Assembly (NCBI GenBank): GCA_964035545.1
Contig: OZ037766.1
Span: 13,816,722 to 13,880,721 of the forward strand
DNA: 64,000 bases
Source: Bugula neritina
Lineage: Eukaryota; Animalia; Bryozoa
Direction: 5' to 3'
The position numbers and the translations under genes were made by a program. The notes beneath the pieces are model-generated. The model saw nothing but the letters and a program-made list of their open reading frames with translations. It did not search any database and was not told where the DNA came from. Positions 6,001-63,600 of this stretch are shown here, piece after piece (position 1 is the first letter of the stretch; each line of letters begins with the position of its first letter).

Positions 6001-6838
6001 GATTTTATCCCAACACACAGAGAGAACTATCTCTGTGATTTAGACAAGACTTTAAAGTTTAAACCATTATAAAAAGCTTTAGTTTCAACGAGCGTGATAC
6101 ATATGCCCTATAAACCTTTGGTTTTAGCTAAGGTCTGTAAGGACTTGTGAGTTATGACTCTAGTTCATGCTATCTCTTCATCAAAATCTAAAACGTGTAG
6201 ATCCAACTCGATAGGAAGGATAACTCTTTATGATTGAAGTAATCTATGTGACTAATAATATTAGTTTTTCTGTACTCTATAGCAGTGGTTCCCAAACAAC
6301 TTTATAACTATACCATTCTCCGTTCATAAACTTCTAGCCTACTATTCATTTCCCTTTTTCTAAAATTGCAATTCATATAATATGTTATGTATAACGCTAT
6401 AATAATTATCTATATGTAATATTAGCCCAACTTACTAGGTTTACACCAGAATCGTAGTGGGTCTCCAGCATGTGCATTCGATTCTCAGCTCTCGCCAAAC
6501 TTTTCATCTGTACTAAAATCTATGATATCATAACTCCAATCACAATAGAACTATAATCCTACACTTCATATTTTGTTTTTGAATTTATCCTTCATGTTAA
6601 ATCATTCTTCAGTAAAAGTAAAAATATATATCCTATGGTGAGAATGAAGTACATGCCATTGATGAGATTTGAATCCTTTCAGCACTTCAATGTGACGGAA
6701 AAGTTTGAATTTTGAAGAGTAATTTGTGGAAATACGAGTTTATTTCTTATATGACCCATGTATAACTGTTCTGTGTATGACATCATGTCGCGTTTTATGT
6801 TCCACAAGTTTCTAACCTCCTTAGCATAATATAATTAT

Positions 6839-7715
<877 letters not shown>

Positions 7716-8132
7716 ATGCTACATTAGTATAGCTTATAAGTGCTTATGTAGAATCATTTAGCATTACAGTTATATCTTATTAGGTACGAGAATATAATAT
7801 ATTCTTATACTGCAATATATTAATCAATGGTGTGCTTTTACTTTCTTTATATAGTATTATAATAATTTTTTTAAAAATATTTCTTCTTTTTGATGAAAAA
7901 TTTATTTGCAAAGCCTAAATTTAGGATTCTGAATTTAAAACTAGTTTTGAACTATTAATTTACTAGAATTTTTGGGTGCTTCTTGTATTAAACAATATGG
8001 GAAAGTAATTTAGTGCCAAGACTTTAAGGCATAGAGTTGTCTTCTCAGTGTCCGATGTTGACGACCAGATATAGGGGAGTGACGTTACATTCTCTTCGCC
8101 TACACTCTACAGTCTACACTCTACTCAGTGAA

Positions 8133-8809: not shown

Positions 8810-9215
8810 TGTAATGGATTTTGCATGTACTTGTTTCCGGTTGCCGAGATCGGCCGAAATACCGAAAATCGGCGTTTCGGGCTACCGAAAACCCGAAATG
8901 CCGAAGTTCGGTGTTTCGGACTACCGAAATGCCGAAACGCCGAAATTCGGCGTTTCGGATGCCCGAAATGCCGAAGTTCGGCGTTTCGGGCCTCCGATCT
9001 CGGCAACAATGACAAAGCACTGTATCTTGTTGTATATAAAAGCCAGCGAGCTCCAGTGTTAGTCAGTCTACTACTGGAGCTCACTGGCAGAGGACCTTTA
9101 ATATATTATATCATTCAATTAAATAAAGATTTCTTCACTTTTACAATACATCTTGTTCTCTCTAACAAAGAGTATGTTCAGGCACTAGTTCTATTCAACC
9201 CACAAAAATACAACA
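8810..9215 (+). repeat. 5' LTR (406 bp)
   Basis: Starts TGTAATGG and ends ACAACA; TATA box TATATAAA at 9033-9040; AATAAA at 9122-9127; direct repeat of 16446-16851. Confidence 0.97.
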
Positions 9216-9216
9216 T

Positions 9217-9240
9217 TGGTGGCAGCAGTGGGATTTCGAA
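9217..9240 (+). other. Primer binding site complementary to the tRNA-Leu 3' end
   Basis: TGGTGGCAGCAGTGGGATTTCGAA immediately after the LTR; near-complement of the tRNA-Leu end ...TTCGAATCCCAC(C/T)GCTGCCA-CCA. Confidence 0.8.
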
Positions 9241-9265
9241 TAACTAGTTGCCAAAGGGGAACGAG

Positions 9266-10180
9266 ATGGCTCCGCCAGGGGAAACAGCCCCTGGGGCAAC
9301 GGAGACGGAGACACCAACCCTCACAGTAGAGGCTTTGGTTGCAGCCCTCCAGGGATTGCGGGAGCCAAGTCAGGCGCCACCTGGTGACAGGTACCGCCTC
9401 AAGCTCCCGAATTTCGGAGGGGAGGAGGATGTGGAGCAGTTCATCCGCGAGTTCGAAGATGTGGCCACCATCGCTGAATGGCCAGCCCCGGTGCGCATAC
9501 TTCAACTCCGGTCCTGTCTGACAGGCCAGGCGAAGAGCTTTGCTCTTGGGCCTGATGAAGCCCACATCCTGCGGGCCCTCAGGGCCCGATTCGGCCGGAC
9601 AGCCGAAGAGGCTGTGGATCGGCTACAGGCACTGAGGCGAAACCGCAAGACGACGTTAGAAGAGCATGCCAACACCGTGGAACGGTTGGCCCAGGCTGCT
9701 TACAGCCACGCCACAGGTACAGAAAGGAAGCGCCTAGTATACAACGCATTCTTTAAAAGCGTCAACGACTCTGGCCTGCAGCGCTACTGGCTGGCCGCCA
9801 AAGTTCGCACCTTGGAAGAAGCCCTGGAGATGGGCAAGTCATATTTCCAGGTGGAAGGGCTCCAAGAGAGGAGCTTCACCGCACACCAGGTAGCCGAGGG
9901 GGACCCAGAGGACGCCACACCCGTAACTCCACAAGTGTCGGCAGCGACAACTCCGTCGCCAGAACAGGCGCAGTTCGCCGTGTTAGTGGACATGATGAAG
10001 GGTCTACAGGCTACGGTAACCGAACTACAACGGAACCAGGCGGACAGGCGGGCTCCCCGGATACGGGACGACTCTGTCCGCCCCTCACAGCTTACCTGCT
10101 GGGGATGTGGAGCGTCTGGGCATGTAAAGAGACATTGCCCCAAGGGTAGCTTGCCTTTAAACAACCGAGGCTCACGGTAA
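9266..10180 (+). CDS. gag: Gag (capsid-like region + CCHC zinc knuckle)
   Basis: ORF 9248-10180, first ATG at 9266; LPNFGGEEDVEQFIREFEDVA..W capsid-like start and C-terminal CWGCGASGHVKRHCP (CX2CX4HX4C). Confidence 0.93.
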   Translation: MAPPGETAPGATETETPTLTVEALVAALQGLREPSQAPPGDRYRLKLPNFGGEEDVEQFIREFEDVATIAEWPAPVRILQLRSCLTGQAKSFALGPDEAHILRALRARFGRTAEEAVDRLQALRRNRKTTLEEHANTVERLAQAAYSHATGTERKRLVYNAFFKSVNDSGLQRYWLAAKVRTLEEALEMGKSYFQVEGLQERSFTAHQVAEGDPEDATPVTPQVSAATTPSPEQAQFAVLVDMMKGLQATVTELQRNQADRRAPRIRDDSVRPSQLTCWGCGASGHVKRHCPKGSLPLNNRGSR

Positions 10181-10224
10181 CTTCCGCCGACCGTGGGCCC
10201 CCAGCCAACCCCATCCGGGGGAGG
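10156..10224 (+). promoter_or_regulatory. -1 programmed ribosomal frameshift signal (U UUA AAC + predicted H-type pseudoknot)
   Basis: TTTAAAC at 10156-10162 is correctly phased in gag; the -1 frame is open into pol; 6-nt spacer; stem 10169-10178/10190-10199; loop 10181-10189 can pair with 10216-10224. Confidence 0.85.
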
Positions 10225-10233
10225 GGTCAGGGA

Positions 10234-13200
10234 ATGACCAAGAAGACCCCTACAGCGTCTGACGAGATGGGATGGCAGACACCTCGGAGATCTCGGAAAC
10301 CGAAAGGTTTACCCGATCCTCCGGTCATGCCACTCAACACCCGGATGGAGTCAGAAGACGTAGGATGGCAGGCACCTCGGAGATCTCGGAGACCGCAAGG
10401 TCTACCCGATCCTCCGGCCTGGCCACTCCAGAACCGGTTCGCGGGGTTACCCGAGGAAGTCGTGGAGGAGGACTCAGCTTACTCGCAAGAGTACCCCAAG
10501 CTGCCCTCCCGACCTCAGAAAACCCCCGTTGTCTCTAAGACGATGAGGAGGCCCGCTGTGCGGACCCAAGTTGTGTCTCCCCCAGAGACTAACCGCTCCA
10601 GGAGCACCCAACCATATGGAAGCAGCTACTTCCTACCCGGAAAAATTTCGGGTAAAGCTGCCACATTCCTACTGGACACTGGGTGCACTACAAACCTGCT
10701 GAGTAGGCGTCTCTTTGACACTCTTGGTGCCCGAGAGCGGGCGAGCCTCGAGCCGTATGAGGGTGCGCATGGTACGTTGGCGGACGGATCATGCATTCCC
10801 TTCTACGGCATCCTTTCACTGCCTGGACGCATCCGTGATCAAGCAATTCACGAGACATTCATAGTCAGCCAGCTGAAGGAGGACGCCATCCTGGGAATGC
10901 CGTTTCTGGAGAAACACCAGTGTCACATGGATTTCCAGAAGTCAGTGGTGGTGATGGCTGGGAAAGAACTTGTCTGTGTTGACAAGTTCGGCAGGCCCTT
11001 GGTGGGCGGAGTCCAGGTAGTGCGGGACTGCACAGTTCCGGGAAGATCCCAGGCAACTCTTCGCTGCAGGGTCAACTGCAGGGAGATTGCTGACCTAGGG
11101 GTGGTTGAGGGAACGCACGGAGCGATCCGACTAGCAAACAGCCTGAATCGGCTAGATTGTCGGCAAGAGCTTCTCGTGCAGTGTATCAACCCCTTCACGG
11201 AACCTGTCCGATTATCGGCCGGAGCGCTAGTGGGGAAGTACCACTCCATCCAGGACGCGGATGTGGGTCCGGCACTGGAAACAGTGGCCGATACCCAGGG
11301 AAACCCCCCTCGCACCAGCCGAAGAGCAGTCCCGGAGCATATGGCTGACCTGTACGATGGAGCGTGCGGCAACTGTACGAGTAGTACTGAACGCCAAGTA
11401 CTGGCTCAACTACTCGCGGAGTACAGTGATGTCTTCAGTCGTGGTGATGAAGACATGGGGCTGACTAAGGTTATCTCTCACGAGATACCCCTGGCAGCCG
11501 GCACCACTCCCATCAGGCAGCCCACCCGGCGTCTAGGCCCGGAGAAAGAGAAGGAGGTGAGCCGACAGGTGCAATATCTTCTCAACCGGGATCTGATTGA
11601 GCCTGCCCACGGTGCGTGGAGCTCTCCAGTAGTCCTGGTCAAGAAGAAAGATGGTAGCTGGAGGTTCTGTGTGGACTACCGCAGACTCAACAGCGTTACC
11701 ATCCAAGACGCCTACCCTCTCCCACGGATAGATGAGTCTCTGGATGCCCTCGCGGGTAGCAAGTACTTCAGTACTTTGGATCTGCTTAGCGGGTACTGGC
11801 AAGTGCCCCTCAGTCCTGATGCCCAGGACAAAGCAGCATTCATTACTCGCGATGGGCTCTGGAAGTGGAAAGTACTGCCATTTGGACTAACGTCCGCCCC
11901 GGCAACTTTCCAACGGCTCATGGAGCAGGTCCTCAGTGGACTACACTGGAAGACCCTTCTCATCTATCTGGACGACGTCATTGTCATCTCTCCAGACTTC
12001 TCGACTCATGTCAGTCGTCTGCGGGAGGTCTTTGACCGTCTCCGGGCAGCTGGACTCAAGCTGAAGCCCTCCAAGTGTGCACTCTTGCAGCCGGAAGTCA
12101 CGTACCTGGGCCATGTGGTGGGCCGTGATGGGGTCGCTACCGACCCGGAGAAGGTACAGGCTGTGAAGGAGTGGACTGTCCCCCGTGACCTCCCTGAGTT
12201 GCGCGCATTCCTGGGCCTAGTAGGGTACTACCGGCAGTACATACCTGGCTTCGCAGGAGTGGCTCAGCCGTTAAATCGGCTGACCGCAAAAGGGGTCCGG
12301 TGGCAGTGGACGCAGGAGGAGCAGCAGGCATTCGACCACCTCAAGCAACGGCTAATGGAGGCGCCAATTCTGGCGTATCCTGATCCAGCCAAGGAGTACA
12401 TCCTGGACACCGACGCCAGTGACCACAGCGTGGGAGCTGTCCTGTCTCAAGTCCAGGGTGGAAGCGAGGTGGTCGTGGCTTACTACAGCAAGACTCTCGC
12501 GGCCGCCGAGAAGAACTACTGCACCACTAGGAAGGAACTCCTAGCAGTAGTCAAGGCGGTCAAGCACTTTCGGCCATATCTGTATGGGAGAACGTTCCGT
12601 TTGCGAACAGACCATGCATCACTGATATGGTTGTGTAAACGTGCGGAGCCCTCGAGCCAGGTAGCTCGTTGGCTAGAGATTCTTGCCGAGTTCTCTTACC
12701 GGATAGAGCACCGTGCTGGCCGGAAGCACGGGAACGCCGACGGCATGAGCCGCCGGCCGGTAGAGGACTGTAAGCAATGCCTGCACATTGAAAAGCGGGA
12801 CGGGGGACCCGCTCGCCTTGACGTGGAAACAGAGTTAGGGGAAGGCGCCGTCTATCGGTGGGAGCACGGCCATCTTCGGACCGAAACCCACTCAGACGAC
12901 GTCCAGGCGCTCCGCGCCAACCCCACTCTGTACCAGAATGTCAAGGAGCTGTGCCGACTCCAGGAGACGCTACCCGGCGCGGTAGCGGACATTTTCCGGG
13001 CCAAGAAGGAGGGCCGACGACCTAGCGAGGAACAGCAGCGGCAGGGGGACGTTGAGTTCCAACTCCTCTGTCGTCGCTGGGATGCCCTCAAGGTCAGTCC
13101 TGATGGCCTCCTGATGATAACGTTAGCAGCAGACAACCGTCAGCAGGAGAGGGACCGCGTCGTCTGTCCACGCGCCCTCCGACGGGAACTGATCTGGGAC

Positions 13201-16119
13201 ACCCATAAGCAGGCTCATTCTGGAGTCAGTCGGGTCATCAGGTGTCTGCGGCTGCGTTGGTATTGGCCCGGAATGACTCGGGACGTACGACTGCGGGTAC
13301 GGCAATGCGAGGTCTGCCAAGCTAGCAAGCATGGCCGCCCCACGGAAACCACTGGTCGACGCCGGCTATACGCTGGTCGACCGTGGCAAGTAGTGGCGGT
13401 AGACCTCGTCGGGCCTATGCCGTTATCCGCCAGAGGGAACACCTGGATACTGGTGCTCACGGACCACTTTACCCGGTGGGCAGATGCTCTGGCTATTCCA
13501 GACGCAACAGCCCCCACGGTGGCCCGGGCCCTGGACCAACATGTATTCTGTTACCTCGGTTTACCCGAGCAGATACATACGGACCAGGGTGCCCAGTTTC
13601 AGTCCCAGCTCATGGGAGACCTCTGCCGGATATGGGGGGTGAACCAGAGTCGGACCACCCCATATCACCCGCAAGGGAACGGAGTCGTCGAGCGGAACAA
13701 CAGGATGTTGGGTGACGCCCTCAGGAGCCTGCTCCTTGGTCGAGGTCAGGAAGAATGGGACGTGGTGCTGCCGCAAATCATGCGGGCCTACCGCAGCACA
13801 CCACACTCCGCCACGCAGGAGACCCCAAACTTCCTGATGCTAGGCCGAGAGACGCGGGTTCCGGAACACCTGACCTACCATGTTCCTGCCCCCGAGTCAC
13901 CGGTACACGAGTATGTGGAGGGTCTGATAGATATCATGGGCAAAGCTCATGATGCGCTGCGTACCCAGCAGTGGCAGACTCGCACAGAGGACTCGGAAGA
14001 GCCCCCGTTGTACCAGGTGGGGGACTGGGTCTGGATGGTGAGCTATCGTAGGCGACGCGGACAGTCGGCTAAGCTTCAGCCCAAGTTCGTCGGTCCCTAC
14101 TGTGTAGTGGAGGTGCTGCCCAACCACACGTACCGTGTGGAGCGCTCTGGCCAGGTCTCGGTCCAGAGCGAGCAGCGCCTGAAACCTTACCATGCCAGCC
14201 CAGACGCAGTGGGTCAGGCACCACCCTTCTTGGAGCCCAACCGCCAGCCCAACCAGCGAGGGAGAATTACCCAACCCAGAGAGGTGGAAATCATCGTTCA
14301 GAGAGAGGCAGCACGTGAACAGGCCGCCCTACGAGAACAATTAGAGCGGCAACAAAGACAGGGGCAACAATTACCACCATCACAAGCTTCGGAGATACCG
14401 CCCCAACCAGAAGGAAGCGTCCCCACCCATCACACTGATGACAACAGGACCCCTCCTGTTACAGTAGTCGAAGAATCACAAGCCCTGACAGAACCCATCC
14501 AACTCGAGAGAAGCCAGAGAGACAGAAGACCCCCCAGATACTTAGCAGATTATGCAGTAGGACGCCTTGAAGTACCTCCTCGTAGTCTTAGTCCTTATAT
14601 TCCCATATACTATCCTACCTTGAGTGACAATTCTCTCAAAGACTCACAAAAATTTCATGAACAGAAGAAAAACTCAGACCGAAATTCGGTGGGCACGCGA
14701 TTACCTGAGTTATCATTTCAAAATTGGATGGAAATTCCCACGAGTCACGTGGCCATCGCCGCTGTAGGTAAAAATTTTAAAACACGAGGCTCGGCCATTA
14801 TTACTACAGCCATCGCACAAGCAACACGCAATTTAGAAATTAAAATACAAAATTTAAATTTTGATTTTAAACTACAATCGAATTCTAACTCAAACATGGA
14901 CTCCACACTCGTCGAATCTACTAACATCACCTCAGGTATTCCCTTACGATTAGAACCTCCACAAACGGAGTCTAATCAAATTAATGTTGATTGGGGTTTG
15001 TTAGATTCTTTAGAATCTGACTTATTAGAGCCAGATACCGAGATGGGTCTGGAAGGTGACCCTGTCCACGATTTCTTGTTGGACCAAGACGTGGGCTCGG
15101 TCACACTTTCAGACTCATCTCGGCCCCCAGTATGTAGTTTAGTGCCTTATAAAAGTATGCCGAAATTCGGCGATAGAGAGATCGGCTTCTCACAGCCTCT
15201 CCTATCTGTTGTAGGAAATAGTATGGATATAGATGAGGTCGGGTCGAGTTGTACCAACTCCCCCCCTCCCCCGGCCCCTGTCCCGGCTCCCAGCAGCCAA
15301 CAGGGCGCCACTCCACCGACAGGGGTGCCTCCCACCATCATCAGTGCCCCTGTGTCTAACCCGGTCGAGCTCCAACTCTCGGCCGGGGAAGAGCAGGGCA
15401 TACTGCTCGGTGGGGAACCCACGGAGAGAGATGATGACTCCCAGATACTGGCCTTGCCTCGGGCCTTGGTCGCCCGCCAGTACTGGGTCTCTCGAGAGAC
15501 CAACTTAAAAATTAGTCAAACGTGCGGCGAGCCGGGCAACCGCATCTGCCAGCAGTGTCGGAGGAAGTTTTCCTCCACACGGCGGCTGCGAGTTCACGCC
15601 CCGCAGCACTACATTAACGTGTTCTGCCCGTGTGGCGAGTTTTCCTACCAACGCGATTACGTGCTGAGGCACCAACGCATCGCACGCTGCCACACGGGCC
15701 ACACGTTTGCAGTGGACCAGGCCAGTTTCCCCGAATTCCGGGACCTGGTGCTGCCCCACGTTGCGGACCCCCGCAAATGGGCTACCCTTGCCCAAGGGTT
15801 TCCCGCATGCCGCCCAATCAGGGAGGTAGAGGAGGAGCCCGTCGCCACGCCTCAACCAGCGGCCACCCAGCCACTTCGGGTCGTGCTGGCACGGGTCGAA
15901 GGCGGCAGGTCCGGGTCCCCGGGCCTGAGCCAGCGACCCTCGGCGACGGGAAGAAGAAGACGGCCCCAGCGTAGCGCCACCAGCCACGCTGCATCCCTGC
16001 CACTGGAGGAGGAGGTCCGGTCCCTGCGCCGGCGCCTGAGACGATACGAGGACGAGCTGGGAGAGCTGAGACGACGAGTGAGCCGTTTGGAGCGGGCACG
16101 CGATACCGACCAACAATAG
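10234..16119 (+). CDS. pol: Pol polyprotein (protease, RT, RNase H, integrase) with ~520-aa C-terminal extension carrying 2 zinc fingers and a leucine zipper
   Basis: LLDTGCT (protease); YLDD (RT); ILDTDASD (RNase H); HKQAH...CEVC plus VAVD/TDQG/VERNN (integrase HHCC and DDE); KFVGPY (GPY/F); typical IN tail ERSQRDRRPPRYLADY ending ~14553; ORF stays open to 16119. Probably made as Gag-Pol through the frameshift at 10156. Confidence 0.96.
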   Translation: MTKKTPTASDEMGWQTPRRSRKPKGLPDPPVMPLNTRMESEDVGWQAPRRSRRPQGLPDPPAWPLQNRFAGLPEEVVEEDSAYSQEYPKLPSRPQKTPVVSKTMRRPAVRTQVVSPPETNRSRSTQPYGSSYFLPGKISGKAATFLLDTGCTTNLLSRRLFDTLGARERASLEPYEGAHGTLADGSCIPFYGILSLPGRIRDQAIHETFIVSQLKEDAILGMPFLEKHQCHMDFQKSVVVMAGKELVCVDKFGRPLVGGVQVVRDCTVPGRSQATLRCRVNCREIADLGVVEGTHGAIRLANSLNRLDCRQELLVQCINPFTEPVRLSAGALVGKYHSIQDADVGPALETVADTQGNPPRTSRRAVPEHMADLYDGACGNCTSSTERQVLAQLLAEYSDVFSRGDEDMGLTKVISHEIPLAAGTTPIRQPTRRLGPEKEKEVSRQVQYLLNRDLIEPAHGAWSSPVVLVKKKDGSWRFCVDYRRLNSVTIQDAYPLPRIDESLDALAGSKYFSTLDLLSGYWQVPLSPDAQDKAAFITRDGLWKWKVLPFGLTSAPATFQRLMEQVLSGLHWKTLLIYLDDVIVISPDFSTHVSRLREVFDRLRAAGLKLKPSKCALLQPEVTYLGHVVGRDGVATDPEKVQAVKEWTVPRDLPELRAFLGLVGYYRQYIPGFAGVAQPLNRLTAKGVRWQWTQEEQQAFDHLKQRLMEAPILAYPDPAKEYILDTDASDHSVGAVLSQVQGGSEVVVAYYSKTLAAAEKNYCTTRKELLAVVKAVKHFRPYLYGRTFRLRTDHASLIWLCKRAEPSSQVARWLEILAEFSYRIEHRAGRKHGNADGMSRRPVEDCKQCLHIEKRDGGPARLDVETELGEGAVYRWEHGHLRTETHSDDVQALRANPTLYQNVKELCRLQETLPGAVADIFRAKKEGRRPSEEQQRQGDVEFQLLCRRWDALKVSPDGLLMITLAADNRQQERDRVVCPRALRRELIWDTHKQAHSGVSRVIRCLRLRWYWPGMTRDVRLRVRQCEVCQASKHGRPTETTGRRRLYAGRPWQVVAVDLVGPMPLSARGNTWILVLTDHFTRWADALAIPDATAPTVARALDQHVFCYLGLPEQIHTDQGAQFQSQLMGDLCRIWGVNQSRTTPYHPQGNGVVERNNRMLGDALRSLLLGRGQEEWDVVLPQIMRAYRSTPHSATQETPNFLMLGRETRVPEHLTYHVPAPESPVHEYVEGLIDIMGKAHDALRTQQWQTRTEDSEEPPLYQVGDWVWMVSYRRRRGQSAKLQPKFVGPYCVVEVLPNHTYRVERSGQVSVQSEQRLKPYHASPDAVGQAPPFLEPNRQPNQRGRITQPREVEIIVQREAAREQAALREQLERQQRQGQQLPPSQASEIPPQPEGSVPTHHTDDNRTPPVTVVEESQALTEPIQLERSQRDRRPPRYLADYAVGRLEVPPRSLSPYIPIYYPTLSDNSLKDSQKFHEQKKNSDRNSVGTRLPELSFQNWMEIPTSHVAIAAVGKNFKTRGSAIITTAIAQATRNLEIKIQNLNFDFKLQSNSNSNMDSTLVESTNITSGIPLRLEPPQTESNQINVDWGLLDSLESDLLEPDTEMGLEGDPVHDFLLDQDVGSVTLSDSSRPPVCSLVPYKSMPKFGDREIGFSQPLLSVVGNSMDIDEVGSSCTNSPPPPAPVPAPSSQQGATPPTGVPPTIISAPVSNPVELQLSAGEEQGILLGGEPTERDDDSQILALPRALVARQYWVSRETNLKISQTCGEPGNRICQQCRRKFSSTRRLRVHAPQHYINVFCPCGEFSYQRDYVLRHQRIARCHTGHTFAVDQASFPEFRDLVLPHVADPRKWATLAQGFPACRPIREVEEEPVATPQPAATQPLRVVLARVEGGRSGSPGLSQRPSATGRRRRPQRSATSHAASLPLEEEVRSLRRRLRRYEDELGELRRRVSRLERARDTDQQ

Positions 16120-16159
16120 GGCCACTCTTTATATTGACACTGGTGGAGGGAGCATGTTT

Positions 16160-16295
16160 ATTTTATTGCTTTGCATGATACTACTTTTGTTTATTGTTTT
16201 GCATGATATTACTTATTTTATTGCTTTGCATGATATTGCTTTTGTTATTGTTTTGCATGATGTTACTTTGTTTACTACTTACATGATATAGCTTA
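16160..16295 (+). repeat. ~27-bp tandem repeat (5 copies, TTATTGYTTTGCATGAT core) in the retrotransposon 3' UTR
   Basis: GCATGAT/ACATGAT cores at ~16173, 16201, 16228, 16255 and 16281. Confidence 0.85.
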
Positions 16296-16445
16296 TGTGT
16301 CGCATGCTGTTGATTGTTTTTTTTTTTTTTTTTTTACCCACCATATTATTTCTTGTGTTGTCCCCCACGCTGTTTCATTTTTGTTGTTGTTGCGCAAATC
16401 CACATTTCCTCTTATCGGAAAGTATGCTTTCCGATGGGGGGTGTG

Positions 16446-16851
16446 TGTAATGGATTTTGCATGTACTTGTTTCCGGTTGCCGAGATCGGCCGAAATACCG
16501 AAAATCGGCGTTTCGGGCTACCGAAAACCCGAAATGCCGAAGTTCGGTGTTTCGGACTACCGAAATGCCGAAACGCCGAAATTCGGCGTTTCGGATGCCC
16601 GAAATGCCGAAGTTCGGCGTTTCGGGCCTCCGATCTCGGCAACAATGACAAAGCACTGTATCTTGTTGTATATAAAAGCCAGCGAGCTCCAGTGTTAGTC
16701 AGTCTACTACTGGAGCTCACTGGCAGAGGACCTTTAATATATTATATCATTCAATTAAATAAAGATTTCTTCACTTTTACAATACATCTTGTTCTCTCTA
16801 ACAAAGAGTATGTTCAGGCACTAGTTCTATTCAACCCACAAAAATACAACA
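16446..16851 (+). repeat. 3' LTR (406 bp)
   Basis: Matches 8810-9215 at offset 7636; preceded by a G-rich PPT and followed by the TSD ATAG. Confidence 0.97.
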
Positions 16852-17579: not shown

Positions 17580-17795
17580 GTTGTATTATACTTGAATTAC
17601 CGCACACGCTGAATTACTTTACTGTTATGTTTTATTCGTATGCGTTGTTATAGTTCGTATGCTTCTTCTCAAAATACATTCTCTTGGTATTAACACAACA
17701 TGGTGGTCAGTACAAAGTTTTAAGTTTATCGTGTTTAATCCGTGCCATCTGCTGTCCTTGGTTTCTTTTGCTGGCGTTATTGACGATTTACTGCT

Positions 17796-20717
17796 ATGGC
17801 AAAGTTTAATCCACCTCCTGAGTTTGACTTTATGCCAGAGAAATGGGCAGAGTGGGCCAAGAGATGGAGTAGATATAGACAGTTTCAAAGTTAGATAAAG
17901 AGGAGGAAGAAATACAAATAAATAGTTTCCTGTATTTTATGGGACCTACAAGTGAAAGCATCTTTATCGGCCTAGGTCTCTCCAAAAAAAAATAAAAATA
18001 AATACAATGAGGTGCTAGCTGGATTTGAGAACTACTTCTCACCCAAGAAATATGTCATCTATGAAAGAGCAAAGTTTTTCAAGCATGACCAGCAGCAAGC
18101 CGAATCAGTAGAACATTATATTCGTGCTTTAAACAAGTTGGCAGACAAATGTGACTTTGGAGATAAGCGAAAGGAGTTTCCTAGTCTTTTTCTGGCCTAG
18201 GTAAAATGAGCCAGGAGGCAGAGATTCAAGTAAACACTGGTTTCCTTCCCCCCTATGCTATTTGTGTTCCACATTGTGCCGTATCCATTATTAAATAAGG
18301 TGAAGGCTGAGTTAGATGAAATGGTAGAGTTAGGAGTCATCTTCCCTGTTTGTGAACCAACTGATTGGTGCTCACCCATGGTTACAGTCCCCAAAGCAAG
18401 TGGTCGTATTCATATATGTGGAGACTACACTCAGTTGAATAAAGTACTCAGGAGGGAGGTATGCCCGATGGCCCATGTCGACTCTAGTCTAACTAAATTA
18501 GGTAATGGGAAAGTTTTCAGCAAGTTGGATGCGAACTCTGGGTTTTATCAGATACCCCTGTCCAAGTCTAGTAAACTCCTTACTACATTTTTGACCCTGT
18601 TTGGTCGGTTTGCTTATCATAGGTTGCCGTTTGGGCTGTCATCTTGCCCAGAGATCTATGCCAAAGTTGTGTCACAGGTTCTTTGTGGTCTAGAAAGAGT
18701 TAATGTCTATAAGGATGATGTTTGTGTCTGGGGCAATACTGTGGAAGAACACGATGCTAGAGTTCGTGCTGTCCTCAGACGCATGTCTGATGCAGGAATG
18801 ACTATGAACAGTTCCAAATGTGAATTTTCTAAAAGTTTGATCAAGTTTCTAGAACATTCAATTTCTGATAAAAACATTCAAGCCAACCTTGAGGCAGTTC
18901 AGGGGATTAGAGGTTTCAGAACTCCTCGGTGTGTCTCAGATGTTTGTAGCTTCTTGGGTATGGCAAATCAGTTGAGTAAGTTTACCCCCAAATTGGCGGA
19001 GCTATCTAAGCCTCTCAGGGATTTTTTGTGTAAGACTTCTCCTTGGTTCTGGGGCGAGGCTCAGTCTATAGCCTTTGCCCAAATCAAAGAGGAGCTGTCG
19101 AGAAATTTCGTTCTTGCGGCTTATGACCCGAAGGCTGAGACCATTACACAGACTGATGCATGCCGGAATGGCATTTGTGCTGTATTGCTGCAGCTTCAGC
19201 TTCTCGTGCTTTGACCGATATTGAGAAGAGGTATGCAACCATCGAACAGGAGGCACTTGGGGTTGTGTGGGCATGTACTAAGTTTAGAAACTACATTACA
19301 GGTATCACAGTCAAGATACAGGCTGATCACAAGCCTTTGATCCCATTACTGAATGAAATCAAACTGGATAAACTGACTGTTCGCATTCAGCGTTTCAGGA
19401 TGAGGCTTATGAGGTTTGCGTATGTCGTTGAACACACTGCTGGTAAGGATAATGTGCTTACTGATGCATTATCTCGCTCACAGGCTTCACTCAGTGTGGA
19501 TGAAGTGGCTTTTGTGGAGGAGGTAGAGTTGGCCGTGAAGAAGAATCATAAGTCGTTTGCTTCTAGTCAGAGGCTCGTGCAGTTAGCAAAGTTACAAAGA
19601 GCTGATGAAGTCTTGGCCCAAGTTATTGAGTTTGTTAAGACCTCATGGCCGGAGTACCTTATCAATCAGGATATACTTCTTTGCCCTTATTTTGAGTCAA
19701 GATCGTTCATTTCTATTCAAGATGGGTTGTTGGCGCTTAGGAACCGCATTGTTATTCCACAAGTTGAGAGATTGGAAGTTCTTCGGACTTTTCATCAAAG
19801 TCATTTATGGTGACCAAGTGCCGTGCTCGGGCCAGGCAGTATGTTTGGTGGTCGGGTTTATCTCAGCAGATTGCTGACATAGTACGCCAGTGTTCCAGAT
19901 GTGTTGGTTTCAGACAATGGTCCCCAGTACGCCAGCCATGAGTTTGAATTGTTTGTTTCTTCTTACCAGTTTGCCCATGTCACTAGTTCACCAAAGCCTC
20001 CTCAGGCTAATGGAGAGGCTGAGATGGCAGTGCAAACAGTCAAGTCCCTGCTCAAGAAAGAGGCAGATCCATACCTTGTACTGTTGGCCTATCGATCTCC
20101 TCTGGAGAATGGCTTGTCTCCTGCTGAGCTGTTGATGGGCCGAAAGCTGAAGACTACTGTTCCCGCGCTTCCTAAGCTGTTAGTCCCTCAGCCTGTAGAG
20201 AGATTGGCAGTTCAGGAGAAAGAAGAGTTGAAGCGAAGTCAAGTGAGAGAGGATTTTGATATTAGCCATAAAGTTGCACCACTTCCTCCGTTGAAACGAG
20301 GCGGCAGTGTGAGAATTAGAGATTTGAACAGGGACGCAGTAGTTATCCAACAGTGCGCACGGAGATCTTGCACTTTTCAAGACACAGGTGGTACTGGGTT
20401 AAGACGCAACCGTAGAAGTCTCACACCAACCCACTCATCTGAGTTGAGCAAGTAGCGTAGCTGTTCAGTTCAAGGACCAACCAATTCATAGTAGTCCCAG
20501 ACAGACCGCTGTATTTGGTACTGAAGCCCAACAATTCTCATCAGATGTTAGGTTGGATGTTCAGCCCCGAGAAAAGCCAGTTCAGGTTAGCCCCTACCAG
20601 GTAGTTGTTCTTCTAGATAGGGCCAAACAAACCCACTCAGTTTCTAGCTCTGCTGTTCGTTTGTTCAAAACTAAGTCTGGTCGCGAAATCCGCGCTCCGC
20701 TAAAGCTTGACCTTTAG
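17796..20717 (+). pseudogene. Disrupted gag-pol of the Mag-like element
   Basis: gag start MAKFNPPPEFDF..PEKWAEW with frameshifts and stops; RT fragment 18255-19214 (WCSPMVTVPK, KLDANSGFYQI, YKDD); RH fragment 19160-19813; IN fragment 19901-20455 (SDNGPQY, NGEAEMAVQTVK); tail KTKSGREIRAPLKLDL*. Protease and part of IN are deleted. Confidence 0.9.
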
Positions 20718-21250
20718 CCTCCTGTCTCGTGCCCTGTTATATTCTGATATCATATTCCGATGTTATATTCTGATATTATAATCTGGTATTATGTTCTCAT
20801 AATGTTTAACATGTTTGTAATTTTATTCTTATTAGCCTATTAATACTTGCTAAATTCATTTATACGCTTTGTATCACTTTTCGTATATCACTCGTGTTTA
20901 CATTTCAGTTGTGTTTGTTTTAGAAAGAGAGGTGTTGTATTATACTCGAATTACCGCACACGCGGAATTACTTTACTGTTTTGTTTTATTCGTATGCGTT
21001 GTTATAGTATGTATGCTTCTTCTAAAAATACATCCTCTTGGTATTAACACAGCAAGTATTACTACTAGTACTACTGCTGCTGCTACTAGCTACTGTAAGA
21101 CTAAGAGTATAAGTGTAGCTACTACCAGTTCTAAAAACGAGTGAAGCAAATACGAAAGTGTAACTAAGAAGTTTTTGTAAAACCAGTAGTAGTAGTAACT
21201 GCAAATAACTTTCTTTTCATTTTTTTATTTTCAGTATGATGTTGCTATTT

Positions 21251-38235: not shown

Positions 38236-38489
38236 TCACAAATATATATTTAAGGTTTCGGAAATGTTGTTGGCATGTCTGACACATCTTACACTTTATA
38301 CAGTTTACACAGAAGTTACTAAATATATGAAACTTGTAATTTAATGTTTTAGAGTTTGCATACAAACCGAAAGCAGTTGGCATTTAGAAAAAGTATTGTA
38401 ATTGCTATTGGAATAAATTATTGAAAAGTTCTATGTTATAGCAACTTTGTTAAAATAGGTAGGCTACTGCATAGTATGTCATATAATGT

Positions 38490-39001
38490 GCAGAGTGCAG
38501 TGTGTAGTAGAGAATGTAGTATAGTGTGTTATAGTACAGTATGTGGTACAGTGTTTGGTACAGTGTGTAGTACAGTGTGCAGTACAGTGTGTAGTACAGT
38601 GTGTGGTACAGTGTTCGGTACAGTGTGTTCTACAGTGTGTAGTACAGTTTGTGGTACAATGCGTAGTACAGTATGTAGTACAGTGTTTGGTACAGTGTGT
38701 AGTACAGTGTGCGGTACAGTGTGTAGTACAGTGTGTGGTACAGTGTTCGGTACAGTGTGTTCTACAGTGTGTAGTACAGTTTGTGGTACAATGTGTAGTA
38801 CAGTGTGTAGTACAGTGTGTAGTGCAGTGTGTAGTACAGTGTGTAGTACAGTGTGCAGTAGAGTGTGTTGTACAGTGTGTAGTACAGTGTGTAGTACAGT
38901 GTGTAGTACAGTGTGTAGTACAGTGTGTAGTACAGTGTGTAGTACAGTGTGTAGTACAGTGTGTAGTACAGTGTGTTGTACAGTGTGTAGTACAGTGTGT
39001 G
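38490..39001. repeat. 12-bp minisatellite (GTACAGTGTGTA)n with a 132-bp higher-order duplication
   Basis: About 42 units; variant pattern starting at 38541 recurs at 38673. Confidence 0.95.
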
Positions 39002-42000
39002 ACTAAAGCAAATCAATTAAGTATGGTGAGAAAGTTACTGTAAACAATGATTGGAATAAAAGACATTAAATTGAAGAAATCAGATTCAATATAAATGGTA
39101 TGAATAACAAACCTGGTGAATGCAGGTTCCCTTGCACCAGTTGTGAAGAAATGAGCTTATATTATATCCATAGCAAGTAAAGACTGAACTGCCAGTGAAT
39201 CCCTCCCACTAGAATTACTCTGCCTTATACTTCTTCTGTATAAAGAAATAGTGAATATCCTCTCACAGTTATATATTCAATAGACAAGAGCCTCGCTTGG
39301 TAAAGTTGATCGCATTAACTAAGTATACTGTATATCTCTTTCACAAGTTTCACCATGCGTTGCTTGCAACAGAAATCAATATCATTATGGAAAAAATAAA
39401 GTATAATGTTAATAACATGTTATAAAGCATTTATGCTGATTGATTTGGTTCTTAATAGGCATCATCCTTTGCTATAGGGCTCATCTAAAGGCTCCACTAT
39501 CTATATAACAAAACAATTATGACACTGTCATCAGTATTATAAGTGATTCTCATTAATGTAGATTGTAGCTTACTATACCACTAATAGTTTACTAGATGGA
39601 AAAATCCAGCAAGTCTAAAATAAGATAATTCTATTTTTCAAAGTAGAGCTTATAAAACTAATACATAATAATCATTATTTATATTATAATATATAAATAA
39701 TGATTATGATGTATATTAGTTTTTAATACATTATATTATCTTGCATTACATTACATTTATATAAAACTTCTAATTATATAATTTCTAAATCTTAAAGTTA
39801 AAGACTCAAACCAACGAGAATCTTATCTCAGCAAAGCATTAAAACTAAAAAATAGCTTTCCTTTCAATACACGTCATCAAAGCAATAATCTATAAACCAG
39901 TTGAAAATAAATAGTACACTGGTGTTGCCCAAGGGTATATTCATACTGGCTTGTGGTATTTGAGAAAAGTCACAATGCTTAACCAGACTGTAAACATGAA
40001 TAAGTATTTGAAGCAAGTTGCCAAGTAATGACATTAAGCTGCAGCACCAAGTGTCAGTAGGCCACCCTTTTTACTTTCTCAGTAACCAGTAGTCACTGCA
40101 TGTAGTTTTACCAGCAAAAGAAAAAACCAATATTTTACTAAATTAAATTTATCTAAATATTTTCAGGGATTCAACCAACTAGCAATTGAATAGTGAGAGT
40201 TTAAAGATCAAATTGCATTTTAAATGCAGCTTTACAAAGAGTAGTTGCCCAGAAGCAATATCATTATCAGACATATCCACCTAAATAGTAAACTCTTTCT
40301 CGAGACACTAGCAGTATGAGTATGAGTAACTATTCAACAGTAACTGACAAGTGACTAAGAGTTACACGTCTAGTACTAGTGCCGTGATACTTACACCATA
40401 TATTAGTCACTAGTAGTACTCCAACCCTCACTTATAATAGTTTACTAACGGGTACTAAAGCTAAGAAACTCGTGTGACAAATCTTTCCTACTAGAACCTT
40501 CTACTAACCACTCACACTCACTCAGTGCACGAGATCTAACACTGTGTTGATTACAGCAAACAGCATAATGTCGTGACCTTTGGTAGCCCATTTGCAGCTA
40601 CGCTACATTATAATACAGTAATATTTGTGGCTGTGTTTTTCATCCAATACTGTATAGTGTATAGAGTAGAGCTAATTGGATGGTTATGTTAATGGAATTA
40701 GATTGATAAACCTTTCTGCTATGGGCTTGTCTCCACATATAAGTTACTGTTAGTTTGATGTAAACATTTCTGCGGGCTACGCAGCTTTAGGGCTAGCTAA
40801 AACACTGAACTAGAAATAATAACTTTTCCAGTTCATGGAGCTAGAGATTTCTTGTATACCTATTGCTTTTTGTTATAGCAGGAAATTTTTAGTGTTTCCC
40901 TTAGCAACAGAAGCGCTTTTGAAAGTTGCCAATCACAAATATTATGAAAGTTGACACTAGTGGTTGATATAGATATTGTAATAATAATTGACTGAAACTA
41001 GTAAATAATTAGGTACAGGAAGTGTCTGAAAAAGTCATGTTTTGCTGAAAAATTCTGCCGGATAAAGTTATGCAAAATTTATGACATTTCTCTGTCTCAA
41101 ACAAAAAATTGCACGTAATCATATTATGTATAAATTAAATCAACCTAGCCTAAGAAAGTTCTTTACAACAGCAGATTGATTTGGTAAAACCATTTTAGTC
41201 CCAGATTAAGGTGAATCTTGAAAGACCTTCTGTTATAAAGTTAATAAAAACAAGCTGATTTGATGCAATAACTAATTATGATTATCCATATATGGCTGCC
41301 TTGCCAGCATGCTAATAATGCATAGAATAGGCAGCCAGCTTTAGTGTAAATGTTGATACTATGCAATACTATTTCCTATTGCCTATGCATTTTATATACA
41401 ATAGTAGCTACTTTACTGGTGTGATCTAATTATATTATAATTCTATAGTTTAGCTATTGTCCTTCCAAAAGATTCTACAAACTCGCATGAAGGAATAATA
41501 ACAAATCTTTTAAAGAAGCTATAAAATTCTAAATTATTATACTTTTATATTTTACAATACATTTACCAAACCAAGAAACTAACAAAGCTGTTTTAAAGAC
41601 ATTCAAATAAATTTCTTTTTCAGCAATTAGGAACCAGTAAAGGTTTTATATTCTCCAAAAATTATACTATTCTACTCAAGTGGCAAGAGTCATGTTTTGT
41701 TTCACAAATACATTTAATTTCCTTTGGTTCTAAGCTTTTTATTCTAAAAAATTACTCTTGCATAGGGTACAGAGCAGAAAATTTGTATAGCAGCAATTAT
41801 GTGGTGTCAAGTTTTTTATTACCTACTACTCAAGAGGCATCACTTTTCTAGCAGCTATTATTTTATAACTGATAAAGGGCTAGCAGTGATTCTTACAACA
41901 TAATTTCTGTTTCACAAATTGGTGTCAAGCCATTGCATTTTACTAACCAGATGCTCATTTTGATCAAATATTACTATTCCTGTTCAATTATTAGTTTTAC

Positions 42001-60600: not shown

Positions 60601-63600
60601 AGCTCACACAGGAAGTGATTCCGAGTCGAGCTCAGATGACGAGATTGGCGTTGAATTCGATATAACAAAGTCAGTTTTTAAATAATTTTCTGAAGCATTT
60701 GATATTTTTGATATAAAACCTACATAAAATTGGATATAATGATTATGTATCTTGCACTCAACATAAATATTATAGGAGTACAATGCATTAATTTACAATT
60801 ACTACACTTCCCATATCATCACAAAGTTAGTATTTTCTCAAACTAATATGAGTCATAAATTTAAACAATCTATCAATACTTAAGCATTATCAACTCGCAG
60901 TATGTTTAGAGTTATGTGGGTTAGCTTATTTAGTGCGTGCATGCATACATGCATGTGTGTGCGTGTGTGTGTGTGTGTGTATGCGTACGTGTGTGTGTGT
61001 GTGTGCGTGTGCGTGTGCGTGTGCGTGTGCGTGTGCGTGTGCGTGTGCGTGTGCGTGTGCGTGTGCGTGTGCGTGTGCGTGTGCGTGTGCGTGTGCGTGT
61101 GCGTGTGCGTGTGCGTGTGCGTGTGCGTGTGCGTGTGCGTGTGCGTGTGCGTGTGCGTGTGCGTGTGCGTGTGCGTGTGCGTGTGCGTGTGCGTGTGCGT
61201 GTGCGTGTGCGTGTGCGTGTGCGTGTGCGTGTGCGTGTGCGTGTGCGTGTGCGTGTGCGTGTGCGTGTGCGTGTGCGTGTGCGTGTGCGTGTGCGTGTGC
61301 GTGTGCGTGTGCGTGTGCGTGTGCGTGTGCGTGTGCGTGTGCGTGTGCGTGTGCGTGTGCGTGTGCGTGTGCGTGTGCGTGTGCGTGTGTGTGCGTATGC
61401 GTATGTGTGTGTTCAAGTGCGCGAGGACTTGAGAAAATGCTTATATCCTTTTTTTATGTTTATTAGTTTATTATTAAAATGTAGCAATTGGTATAACCTC
61501 ACCCTACAATATTTATACAAAAAGTACAATTTTCTTAGGGAGTTTGTGCATATAGATGTCCCAGAATATGGAGAGCGGGAAGAGATAAGCACAGACGATG
61601 TAGAGCATGTGAAGTTTCAACAACGACCTGAGACACATATTGGCTATACTTCACCTGCAAATACTGACAGGTAAGCTGTCAAGCTTCTTCTAAATCATGT
61701 TGCAAAATTATAAACTAGCTTAGATGCAAACAAAGACGCAAAAGATGGAGACTTTTCATGCAATCAGCTTTTGATCTTTGTTACTGCTCTAATACATTAC
61801 TGTAATTGTAATTGTATCTATTTTTTTAATCTAACATAAAGATATTTTTTATGACACCAAATATGCGAAGTAAAGATGTTGTGTCTGAACCAATATTTTA
61901 CATTTTGGTTACATCTGCAGACAAGTTATGTGGGGCTGTATAAATCTTTTGCACTTTGTTCCTCAAATTAAACAGCTGCGACATTCTGCACAAGTCTATT
62001 AGAATGCTGCTATGTGCACTATATGCGCTTTTGTAGAAATGACGTTGTTCAACGTAGAACAGCCTCGCCTCTGGCTATACGAAGAAAGAAATGCAATATT
62101 CCCAGGCCATTTACGCCACTGAACAATAACATTAGTCAAAAGAAACAAACCGCTGCTAGTTTTCTTGGGTCAGTTCAACAAGTGCTCTTTATCCTCGTCA
62201 TGTGATTATTTCAAAAATTACAGTTTAATTCATTTTACTTTAATGAGTTCAATAGTTTTCAATTGAACAATAGCTTTCAGTATTTGCAGGAATGTTTCTA
62301 TACATTAATAGCATTGCTTAATTGTGGTTTTGACTAAGAATGTTGTTCTTTTGAAGAGTAGTATATACATTTTCTGAGAAAATTGTAAAGTTTCAGCAGT
62401 TTTCCAATTTTATAGCCACTTGTAAGAATCACTTTAACGCCAAATATTATCTTCTAATAACAATATATAACTCACCTAATCATTACCTGCCGTCTTTGGA
62501 AAAGGTATAATGCATCAGTAAAGTAAACTGCATAAAAGAAATAATAAGAATAATAACTAATAGGATCACACAGTTCATAGCTTTTACGTCTTAAATTGAT
62601 GAAGTTTTATGTAATGGTCTTTGAGTAAGTCATTCAAGATAGAAAGTAATAGTTGAATATTCAATGCTGAAATATTAGTAATTCTCTTGGAATTCAGACT
62701 CAAGTTATCACAAGACAATAAGTTAGACAGTTTACTTTTGTAATGCAAGAAAACTTGGTGGATAAATTGCTCCCTTAGCCAAATTAACTCTTTGACGGAA
62801 AGGAGTGAAAGTATAAAATTCTCATTTACACATGGAGTGCATAAGGTATGCATTTGGTAATTTGATTGCAGAGAAAGTTTGTTCAAGCAGCTGTGCTGCC
62901 TGCACTGGCTGCTGAAGTCAATGGATCTTCCGGACGTTGCCACTATGACCCCAATCATCACATGCTGGCAGATGAAGTAGGTTACTGTGTGTTTAATGCC
63001 TTGAATGAAAACTTCAAAGGTTAAGTGCAGTTTGTTTCTTATTGATCTATTAAAGTTACTAGAAGTTATGGTTTTGTGATTTAGTGCTGATAAAATGGGA
63101 GGCATAGAGATCAACAAGAAGGCAGCGGAAGACAAGAAACAGCGAGACCAGCAAAGGTATGACAACTTATTCAAAGTTCCAAGACAAAAAGAAATCCGTA
63201 AACTTAAACCGAGGAGTGAAAAGCGCAGGTCTACATTTTTCCCAACTCGGCTTAGCAGGTAATTTATGAAATGCAGGTAGAGCTAGCTTGTTCTCTTCTT
63301 GAAACTCCTGATGCACATTTTATTTGTGTAATATTAGACTGTTGAATACATTTAACTTAGAATTTACGCCTATGTTGCTTTTGCGTCATTCACTTTCTAT
63401 TTTGCATGTTTAATGTTTGAGCTAAAATTAATAAAGAATATAAAATATGCTTGTCAACCAATTTGTAAACTATCAACCGCGTGAGCTGCATAGAATTCAT
63501 AGGATGTTTTCAATATAATAATCTTGGTTGCTACTGTAGCTGTGACAAATTTTATTTAACTTTATTCCATCATCAATTCAATTCAAAGAAAATATCTTTA

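What the first reader, a model, noticed from the sequence alone, without database searches (positions are those of the whole stretch)
14590..15175. Putative internal promoter/second start inside pol, carrying the same CCGAAATTCGG palindrome as the LTR
Seen: after the IN end the GC-rich pol switches abruptly to AT-rich, UTR-like sequence yet has no in-frame stop. It contains ACCGAAATTCGGT (14678-14690) and GCCGAAATTCGGC (15159-15171), the same core as LTR unit 3. It also has a CACGTG E-box, three GCCAT YY1-like cores (14752, 14794, 14809), TATAAAAG (15148-15155) and an in-frame ATG in strong context (CAAACATGG, 14896) that would give a separate 407-aa protein. Known: foamy viruses express Tas from an internal promoter that Tas autoactivates. 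Inference: the accessory factor may be made independently of Gag-Pol and autoregulate.
Basis: partly seen in the sequence, partly recalled or inferred. Interest (0 to 1): 0.7.

Follow-up and report, generated by a model that had tools for sequence, protein, structure and literature searches.

The report
Jumping gene's hidden zinc-finger self-regulator
An intact Gypsy retrotransposon carries, fused to the end of its pol gene, a zinc-finger module, and just upstream of that module it repeats the palindrome found in its own terminal repeats, so it likely makes its own DNA-binding regulator from a predicted internal transcript, something best known from complex retroviruses.

Summary
All listed motifs are at the stated places. 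They lie in an intact Ty3/Gypsy element (8810-16851, identical 406-bp LTRs) whose Pol runs 521 codons past the integrase tail into an acidic stretch, a two-finger C2H2-type domain (model pLDDT 96) and a coiled coil. The palindrome CCGA-N3-TCGG is real: 4 in coding sequence against 0.44 expected, and sister-copy matches begin at both internal sites. Met 14896 is kept in 18 of 21 homologs, always before a G-first codon. The TATAAAAG, E-box and GCCAT cores are not above chance. Relatives have no stop right after integrase: the fusion recurs in distant elements, so the stretch is coding and regulatory at once. In three other relatives the LTR's own repeated pentamer ranks 1 to 5 of 512 in its coding body. 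Best reading: an element-encoded, likely self-binding regulator, also made from a subgenomic RNA. No transcript, start site or binding was shown.

The parts
8810..9215 (+). 5' LTR, 406 bp, TG...CA, identical to the 3' LTR; U3 holds about 39-bp repeats with four CCGA-N3-TCGG sites (8862, 8901, 8940, 8971) and TATATAAAAG at 9033; 4-bp target duplication ATAG
9217..9235 (+). primer-binding site (tRNA-Leu type; assignment recalled, not tested)
   Evidence: sequence
9266..10180 (+). gag ORF with CCHC knuckle; contains one palindrome copy at 9407
   Evidence: (zf-CCHC E=0.029, below cut-off)
10156..10199 (+). predicted -1 frameshift: T TTA AAC in the gag frame followed by a stem at 10169-10199
   Evidence: stem present, z -0.9, not significant; function inferred
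10150..16119 (+). pol ORF, 1989 codons: PR-RT-RNaseH-IN-SH3, IN tail, then a 521-codon extension
14509..14553 (+). IN C-tail motif R..R..P..Y.DY, near which Pol ends in relatives that lack the module
14679..14689 (.). internal palindrome 1, CCGAAATTCGG; sister-copy matches begin 5-18 nt upstream
   Evidence: table 8 (records 3, 17, 18, 25-27)
14746..14751 (.). CACGTG E-box; chance-level, variable in sister copies
14766..14834 (+). block shared by sister families at the DNA level; holds a one-mismatch palindrome (14784) and two GCCAT; candidate core of the internal promoter
   Evidence: (loose ends before 14766 in 4 of 4 runs; pieces 14766/14785-14834/14870)
14896..14898 (+). conserved in-frame ATG (AACATGG), predicted start of a 407-aa product
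   Evidence: Met in 18 of 21, G-first next codon in 18 of 18
14936..15214 (+). candidate in-frame phase-1 intron, 279 nt: donor CAG|GTATTC is middling; acceptor is strong; it encodes the acidic stretch
   Evidence: splicing not observed
14990..15110 (+). acidic-hydrophobic stretch with conserved DFLLDQDVGSVTL motif; predicted activation domain, disordered in the model
15148..15155 (+). TATAAAAG; most likely just the codons of a conserved P-Y-K peptide
15160..15170 (.). internal palindrome 2, CCGAAATTCGG; sister-copy matches begin at 15155-15158; homolog peptides compatible with CCG ANN NTC GG in 29 of 40
15190..15214 (+). branch-point-like CTCAC, pyrimidine tract and TAG acceptor
   Evidence: rank 1 of 249; 35 of 40 homologs compatible, 16 residue pairs, top of 186 columns
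15223..15225 (+). second conserved in-frame ATG, 8 nt after the acceptor; would give 298 aa without the acidic stretch
   Evidence: Met in 37 of 47, G-first next codon in 32 of 37
15445..15825 (+). compact two-finger C2H2-type domain with flanking helices (W-x4-T ... CxxC..HxxxH, CxC..H..C/H, V-D)
15997..16113 (+). C-terminal 39-residue helix, predicted coiled coil
   Evidence: H368-406, pLDDT about 90
16446..16851 (+). 3' LTR, preceded by a G-rich tract at 16433-16441

Best explanation
The stretch is a protein-coding linker of Pol that likely doubles as the control region of a nested gene, whose product (acidic stretch, two C2H2-type fingers, coiled coil) is predicted to bind the element's own CCGA-N3-TCGG palindromes and so regulate the LTR and itself. 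SHOWN: intact element; open frame under selection; fusion of the module to Pol here and in distant relatives; excess of the palindrome; conserved Met 14896, acceptor 15214 and Met 15223; zinc-finger fold. INFERRED: (1) a subgenomic RNA starts between palindrome 1 and 14896 and gives the 407-aa form, while rare frameshifted Gag-Pol carries the same module as a tail; (2) the coiled coil dimerises two finger domains onto the two CCGA half-sites; (3) the acidic stretch activates transcription or counters silencing at the four U3 sites and the internal sites, a positive loop; (4) splicing into 15214 gives a 298- or 314-aa form without the acidic stretch that would compete as a repressor; (5) the frame may be kept open so that the genomic RNA has no long 3' untranslated region, or so that the factor is packaged with Gag-Pol.
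For: Palindrome excess under codon-preserving nulls, in two different reading frames. In sister-copy contigs (4 runs, at most 3 samples, 2 studies) matches start just before palindrome 1, at 14766, and at palindrome 2; none of the 40 listed differences (of 190) falls in either palindrome or in the acceptor AG. Met 14896 in 18 of 21 homologs, 8 of 11 where it is not the called N-terminus, followed by Gly, Glu or Asp, all G-first; no out-of-frame ATG between 14658 and 14983. Distant L014 has one in-frame ATG in its linker, in the same AACATGGA context. Acceptor rank 1 of 249; best linker acceptor also rank 1 of 240 in L005 and 2 of 295 in L010. Domain confidently folded, pTM 0.88; 13 of 51 members hit zf-C2H2_4; profile hits C2H2 proteins at E 6e-8. 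Own-LTR pentamer ranks 1 (L009, 56 vs 23.5), 2 (L010, 41 vs 21.7) and 3-5 (L002, 29 vs 16) of 512 in the element's own coding body; L002's LTR holds an 11-bp palindrome of the same shape, CCAA-N3-TTGG. Precedents: foamy Tas binds LTR and internal promoter as a dimer (PMC4929722 passages); Tor env is driven by an internal promoter (PMC4402516 passages); VANC targets form family-specific tandem repeats (PMC5735166 abstract).
Against: No start site, splice joint or binding was observed. TATAAAAG, E-box and GCCAT are chance-level; no other core promoter motif was identified. The window's own pentamer CCGAA is not enriched in its coding body (19 vs 15.7, rank 104 of 512); only the full palindrome is. 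The two elements without the module in Pol also show their LTR pentamer fairly high (ranks 13 and 20), and CCAAC ranks 8-12 in the window's body too, so the pentamer effect is not specific to finger-bearing elements. L002 has no CCAA-N3-TTGG in its extension, and its pentamer count includes tandem repeats. Best linker acceptors rank only 11 of 195, 37 of 298 and 13 of 230 in L002, L009 and L014. The donor at 14935 is ordinary (11 of 411 GT sites score higher and 44 tie). Most conservation of Met, acceptor and palindrome 2 is back-inferred from proteins of related, often decayed copies, and 10 of the 18 Mets are gene-caller N-termini. The supposed intron encodes the best-conserved peptide of the linker. 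Foldseek found no solved match at E<=0.001, so DNA binding rests on motif-level likeness.
Confidence: 0.47

Rival explanations
1. No internal promoter: the module is made as the tail of Gag-Pol (released by protease or left on integrase) and from an LTR-started RNA spliced to the 15214 acceptor; it still binds the element's palindromes, which act as enhancer or anti-silencing sites.
For: Fusion is kept in 5 of 24 close Pol proteins and in L001, L002, L005, L009; the acceptor is the strongest single signal; promoter hallmarks are chance-level; palindromes also sit in gag and PR-RT. Cer1 makes its regulator CERV from a spliced mRNA (PMC10309623 abstract).
Against: Does not explain the conserved +4 G at Met 14896 upstream of the acceptor, nor the AT-rich conserved block 14766-14834. 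A spliced-only product would lack the acidic stretch.
Confidence: 0.22
2. The finger module is a chromatin or target-site tether on integrase (in the place where chromoviruses carry a chromodomain), and the palindromes are sites for a host transcription factor.
For: Position at the C-terminus of IN; fusion conserved; LTR pentamers are also raised in elements without the module; a host gene in Watersipora carries two such domains (P0021).
Against: An acidic stretch precedes the fingers in all 8 fused proteins examined; the motif differs from family to family, which fits an element-encoded partner better than one host factor; conserved internal Met and acceptor are unexplained.
Confidence: 0.15
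3. The palindromes are RNA hairpins and the module is an RNA-binding export or packaging factor (Rev- or CERV-like).
For: U3 repeats fold very stably (z -11.7) and palindrome 2 forms a 5-bp hairpin in a region with z -2.2; some C2H2 fingers bind RNA (general knowledge).
Against: Palindrome 1 is not folded as a hairpin in the best structure; U3 of the 5' LTR is upstream of the TATA box, the usual place of DNA sites; an acidic stretch suits transcription.
Confidence: 0.09
4. A captured gene plus its old upstream DNA became fused to pol; the internal motifs are leftovers or chance.
For: E-box, GCCAT and TATAAA are chance-level; the module is missing or cut short in many clade members (9 of 31 rows carry it).
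Against: Palindrome excess and open frame are far from chance; module and fusion persist across elements only 41-56% alike in integrase.
Confidence: 0.07

Closest known systems
Foamy virus Tas/Bet with internal promoter
   Same: Regulator gene at the 3' end; the same DNA site would occur in the LTR and at an internal position; Tas has DNA-binding, dimerisation and activation domains and binds both promoters (PMC4929722 passages).
   Different: This is an env-less Ty3/Gypsy element; the module is in frame with Pol; the product has C2H2-type fingers; the promoter is not demonstrated.
Oikopleura Tor elements (env from an internal promoter)
   Same: Gypsy-type element with a third coding unit after pol driven by an internal promoter (PMC4402516 passages).
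   Different: There the third unit is Env and, in Tor4b, is spaced from pol; here it is a predicted nuclear zinc-finger protein fused to Pol.
Arabidopsis VANDAL VANC anti-silencing proteins
   Same: Element-encoded factor whose targets are family-specific short motifs amplified as tandem repeats (PMC5735166 abstract); here each family has its own repeated, mostly CC/GG-anchored LTR pentamer.
   Different: VANDALs are plant DNA transposons (recalled); no homology test was made; here the motifs lie in LTRs and coding sequence, and loss of methylation is untested.
Cer1 CERV
   Same: Regulatory protein of an LTR retrotransposon made from a spliced mRNA (PMC10309623 abstract).
   Different: CERV acts on RNA export; no similarity was tested; this module has zinc fingers and an acidic stretch.
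Ty3/Gypsy (Metaviridae) elements with accessory Pol C-terminal domains, e.g. chromodomain
   Same: PR-RT-RH-IN order with an optional domain after IN (accessory domains reviewed in PMC6338049, part 1 of 4 read).
   Different: The added module is about 520 residues, has no Pfam family above cut-off, and carries its own start and splice signals.

Membership tests
Ty3/Gypsy LTR retrotransposon | LTRs TG...CA with target duplication, PBS and PPT | tested here: met
Ty3/Gypsy LTR retrotransposon | gag, then PR-RT-RNaseH-IN order | tested here: met
Ty3/Gypsy LTR retrotransposon | placement in a named clade (Mag, CsRN1, MolGy, PolGy) | not tested
   no named references were held; the tree has only unnamed rows plus one salmonid protein outside the clade
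Foamy-virus Tas/internal promoter system | retrovirus with env, internal promoter between env and 3' LTR | tested here: not met
   no env ORF; Gypsy-type pol
Foamy-virus Tas/internal promoter system | regulator ORF separate from pol | tested here: not met
   in frame here and in relatives
Foamy-virus Tas/internal promoter system | same response element in LTR and internal site | tested here: met
   sequence level only
Foamy-virus Tas/internal promoter system | transcript start at the internal site, activated by the product | not testable with these tools
   only assembled contigs were available
C2H2 zinc-finger protein | CxxC-x12-HxxxH ligand spacing and finger fold | tested here: met
   finger 1: C218, C221, H234, H238 nearly invariant
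C2H2 zinc-finger protein | canonical tandem array with TGEKP-type linkers and a matching solved fold | tested here: not met
   finger 2 is CxC...H...C/H with a short linker; Foldseek best E 0.46
C2H2 zinc-finger protein | sequence-specific DNA binding | not testable with these tools
   inferred only
VANC-like anti-silencing system | family-specific motif in tandem repeats and spread along the element | tested here: inconclusive
   met in L009, L010, L002; only the full palindrome in the window; controls also raised
VANC-like anti-silencing system | product causes loss of silencing marks on its own family | not testable with these tools
   none

The most novel reading that the evidence does not exclude
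A whole clade of animal Gypsy retrotransposons encodes its own sequence-specific zinc-finger transcription factor, hidden as an in-frame tail of Pol, that co-evolves with a family-private LTR motif; an internal promoter makes the activator and splicing makes a repressor form, giving simple retrotransposons a complex-retrovirus-style on/off circuit and an animal counterpart of VANC anti-silencing.
Probability: 0.3. Interest if true: 0.85.

Novelty: new variant of a known kind. Interest (0 to 1): 0.62.

Why it matters
LTR retrotransposons are usually taken to rely on host transcription factors; self-encoded transactivators are the mark of complex retroviruses. A compact finger domain with no Pfam family above cut-off, present in 286 protein clusters, paired with family-specific LTR motifs, would show how such elements switch themselves on or escape silencing, and would give a natural series of protein-DNA pairs in which specificity changes can be tested directly. 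It also warns that accessory genes can hide inside a single long pol ORF.

Tried and rejected
RNA evidence: three RNA or probable-RNA runs (X11, X12, X19) have depth 0-0.6 over 14420-15184 against about 20-450 over RT-IN, and no splice joint is among the 15 joints shown of 134; none of the 5 joints matches 14935>15215. All are assembled contigs of diverged copies, so this shows neither presence nor absence of a subgenomic RNA. TATAAAAG as a TATA box: rejected (wrong side of the ATG, chance-level, not seen in the loose ends of X2 and X3). GCCAT as YY1 sites and the E-box: not above chance; His-Val is kept in 6 of 10 homologs, so the E-box is left open. Stop after IN in sisters: not found; L004 and L014 have one in-frame stop in mid-linker, which look like lesions (L004's near-identical sister L005 is open; the L014 stop lies after its candidate ATG). 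'Longer' protein search found no fused form, but one search did, so one search was a sensitivity failure. Scans for close relatives' DNA found nothing in metagenome, viral and genome contigs. No whole genome is held. Foldseek gave no significant match. The dimer prediction, the VIA-align search and the ESM Atlas were not available, so dimerisation is untested. Earlier findings: nothing. Literature searches (judged from titles and abstract starts) showed no description of this module; term searches in PMC13524379 and PMC8556966 found no 'zinc finger' or 'zinc'. Repbase and GyDB entries, subscription papers and all supplements were not seen and may already note it.
Full report
Setting. The finding lies in an intact LTR retrotransposon at 8810-16851: two identical 406-bp LTRs with TG...CA ends and a 4-bp target duplication, a gag ORF (9266-10180) and a 1989-codon pol ORF in the -1 frame with protease, RT, RNase H, integrase and SH3 in Ty3/Gypsy order. 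A slippery heptamer and stem at 10156-10199 suggest -1 frameshifting (inferred). After the integrase tail motif, which ends at 14553, the frame continues for 521 codons.

Observation. Only some exceed chance. CCGA-N3-TCGG has 12 copies in the window, all in the element: four in each LTR and four in coding sequence (9407, 11208, 14679, 15160). In 2000 shuffles that keep the protein and the codon counts the coding sequence holds 0.435 on average and never four; a shuffle within 14554-15214 gives p=0.002 for two. The two internal copies are read in different frames, so one peptide constraint cannot explain both. GCCAT x3, CACGTG and TATAAA give p of 0.10 to 0.66 in the same nulls. The GC fall is gradual. 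The frame is kept open against odds of 2.6e-6.

The downstream product. The 407-aa ORF from 14896 has 19 homologs among 7998 scored candidates; a profile finds 286 clusters at E<=0.001, of which 150 were listed. AlphaFold2 gives a disordered N-terminal half, a confident domain at residues 185-307 and a 39-residue C-terminal helix; the domain alone reaches pLDDT 96, pTM 0.88. It has one canonical C2H2 finger and a second CxC...H...C/H finger, packed between extra helices. 13 of 51 members hit zf-C2H2_4 at E<=0.05, the window's own domain none; the profile matches solved C2H2 proteins over the first finger only (best E 6e-8); Foldseek's top rows are C2H2-DNA complexes but none is significant. 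An acidic stretch precedes the domain in all 8 fused proteins examined. Ten distant members were looked up: seven are 'hypothetical' or 'uncharacterized', three unnamed; one is a Watersipora gene with two such domains.

Fusion is the rule. Two close homologs run in frame from the integrase tail into the fingers (P0005, P0009). Of 36 long Pol proteins found with the integrase end, 5 of the 24 close ones carry the same domain in frame, at 41-56% identity in the query region; many of the others end shortly after the tail motif. Of 114 fetched loci, 9 hit the domain: L001, L002, L005 and L009 are open from integrase to fingers, L004 and L014 have one mid-linker stop, L013 and L049 are decayed, and in L011 the finger ORF lies upstream of an element whose own Pol stops at the tail. 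On an integrase tree of 43 rows the 9 finger-bearing rows are scattered within a 31-row clade (100/100), no more clustered than shuffled labels: consistent with an old module often lost or broken, though 'absent' rows may be decayed or cut copies.

Signals under the code. 54 of 162 proteins aligned to the linker. A second Met 8 nt later is kept in 37 of 47. A donor at 14935 would close a 279-nt in-frame intron over the acidic stretch, but it is an ordinary site. At palindrome 2, 29 of 40 homolog peptides, of five kinds, fit CCG ANN NTC GG. These are inferences from proteins of related copies.

DNA of sister copies. Contigs of four runs (at most 3 samples, 2 studies; X1 may be the source) laid at 80% on 14560-15330 match in blocks that begin at 14661-14674, at 14766 (loose ends there in 4 of 4 runs) and at 15155-15158, that is at palindrome 1, at a block holding a one-mismatch palindrome, and at palindrome 2. 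None of the 40 differences shown (150 not shown) is in a palindrome or the acceptor AG, while 15215 and 15216 vary; with so few rows this is weak. Loose ends in X2 and X3 do not show TATAAA at 15148, and single contigs of X1 and X2 keep a YAG and the ATG 8 nt later. The region of Met 14896 is covered only in X1.

Family-private motifs. Relatives have different repeated LTR pentamers: CCGAA (window), CCAAC (L002, with one CCAA-N3-TTGG palindrome), CCGAC (L009), CTGGA (L010). In codon-preserving shuffles each element's own pentamer ranks 1, 2 and 3-5 of 512 in the coding body of L009, L010 and L002, but 104-116 in the window; L010's finger region is cut at the contig end (its sister L014 has the domain). 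The two controls without the module in Pol rank 13 and 20. The pattern is suggestive of an element-encoded binder, as with VANC targets (PMC5735166 abstract), but is not specific enough to prove it.

Mechanism. The best reading (0.47) is a nested regulatory gene: an internal start upstream of 14896 would give an activator (acidic stretch, fingers, coiled coil) that dimerises on the palindromes in U3 and at its own promoter; splicing into 15214 would give a short form without the acidic stretch; Gag-Pol carries the module too. Rivals: expression only by fusion and LTR-started splicing (0.22); integrase tether with host-factor sites (0.15); RNA hairpins and an export factor (0.09); relic (0.07). 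No RNA evidence bears on the choice, and dimerisation could not be modelled.

Comparison. It works like foamy Tas with its internal promoter (PMC4929722, passages) and like Tor env expression (PMC4402516, passages), but fails membership of the foamy system (no env, fused ORF). Cer1 CERV (PMC10309623, abstract and outline) is a precedent for a spliced regulator in an LTR retrotransposon. PMC6338049 (part 1 of 4) names chromodomain, exonuclease and helicase accessory domains in the part read. Five searches listed no paper describing this module, judged from titles and abstract starts; curated repeat databases and supplements were not seen. The tRNA-Leu assignment, splice and Kozak consensus, and activation-domain traits are recalled.

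Verdict. Observation partly confirmed; interpretation partly supported; new variant of a known kind; interest 0.62.

Noticed in passing
window 18234-20455, repeat pair 17580-17700 / 20934-21054: A second, broken Gypsy-type element (RT, RNase H and IN pieces in three ORFs, about 33% alike to the first Pol), flanked by a 121-nt direct repeat at 93%. No finger module hit there.
   Followed up: partly
window 16480-16629 and 8844-8993: The U3 repeats are nested inverted repeats that fold at -95.6 kcal/mol, z -11.7; on the genomic RNA they could form long double-stranded stems.
   Followed up: partly
window 10243-10428: Two 93-nt tandem copies (81%) at the start of pol, upstream of the protease.
   Followed up: no
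window 16158-16280: Four 27-28-nt T-rich repeats containing TTGCATGAT between the pol stop and the 3' LTR.
   Followed up: no
window 9042-9088 and 16678-16724: An inverted repeat just after the LTR TATA box (81% over 47 nt), a possible 5' hairpin of the transcript.
   Followed up: no
P0021 / P0162: An annotated Watersipora subatra gene on a 66-Mb chromosome carries two copies of the finger domain; a possibly domesticated form. P0052 also has two copies.
   Followed up: partly
P0176, P0167: Pol proteins that keep a C-terminal helix-like end after the IN tail but lack the acidic and finger parts; P0176 shares this end with P0180, which suggests an in-frame internal deletion.
   Followed up: partly
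L011 75-992: A free-standing ORF with the finger domain upstream of an element whose Pol lacks it.
   Followed up: partly
P0196: A distant Pol with a different 1164-residue tail that contains a C2H2-like pair, outside the clade studied.
   Followed up: no
window 6821-7730, 38400-39040, 60854-61470: Long CA/GT-type microsatellite arrays.
   Followed up: no
L083-L114: 32 Gypsy integrase hits lie in bacterial metagenome-assembled genomes, probably host contamination.
   Followed up: no
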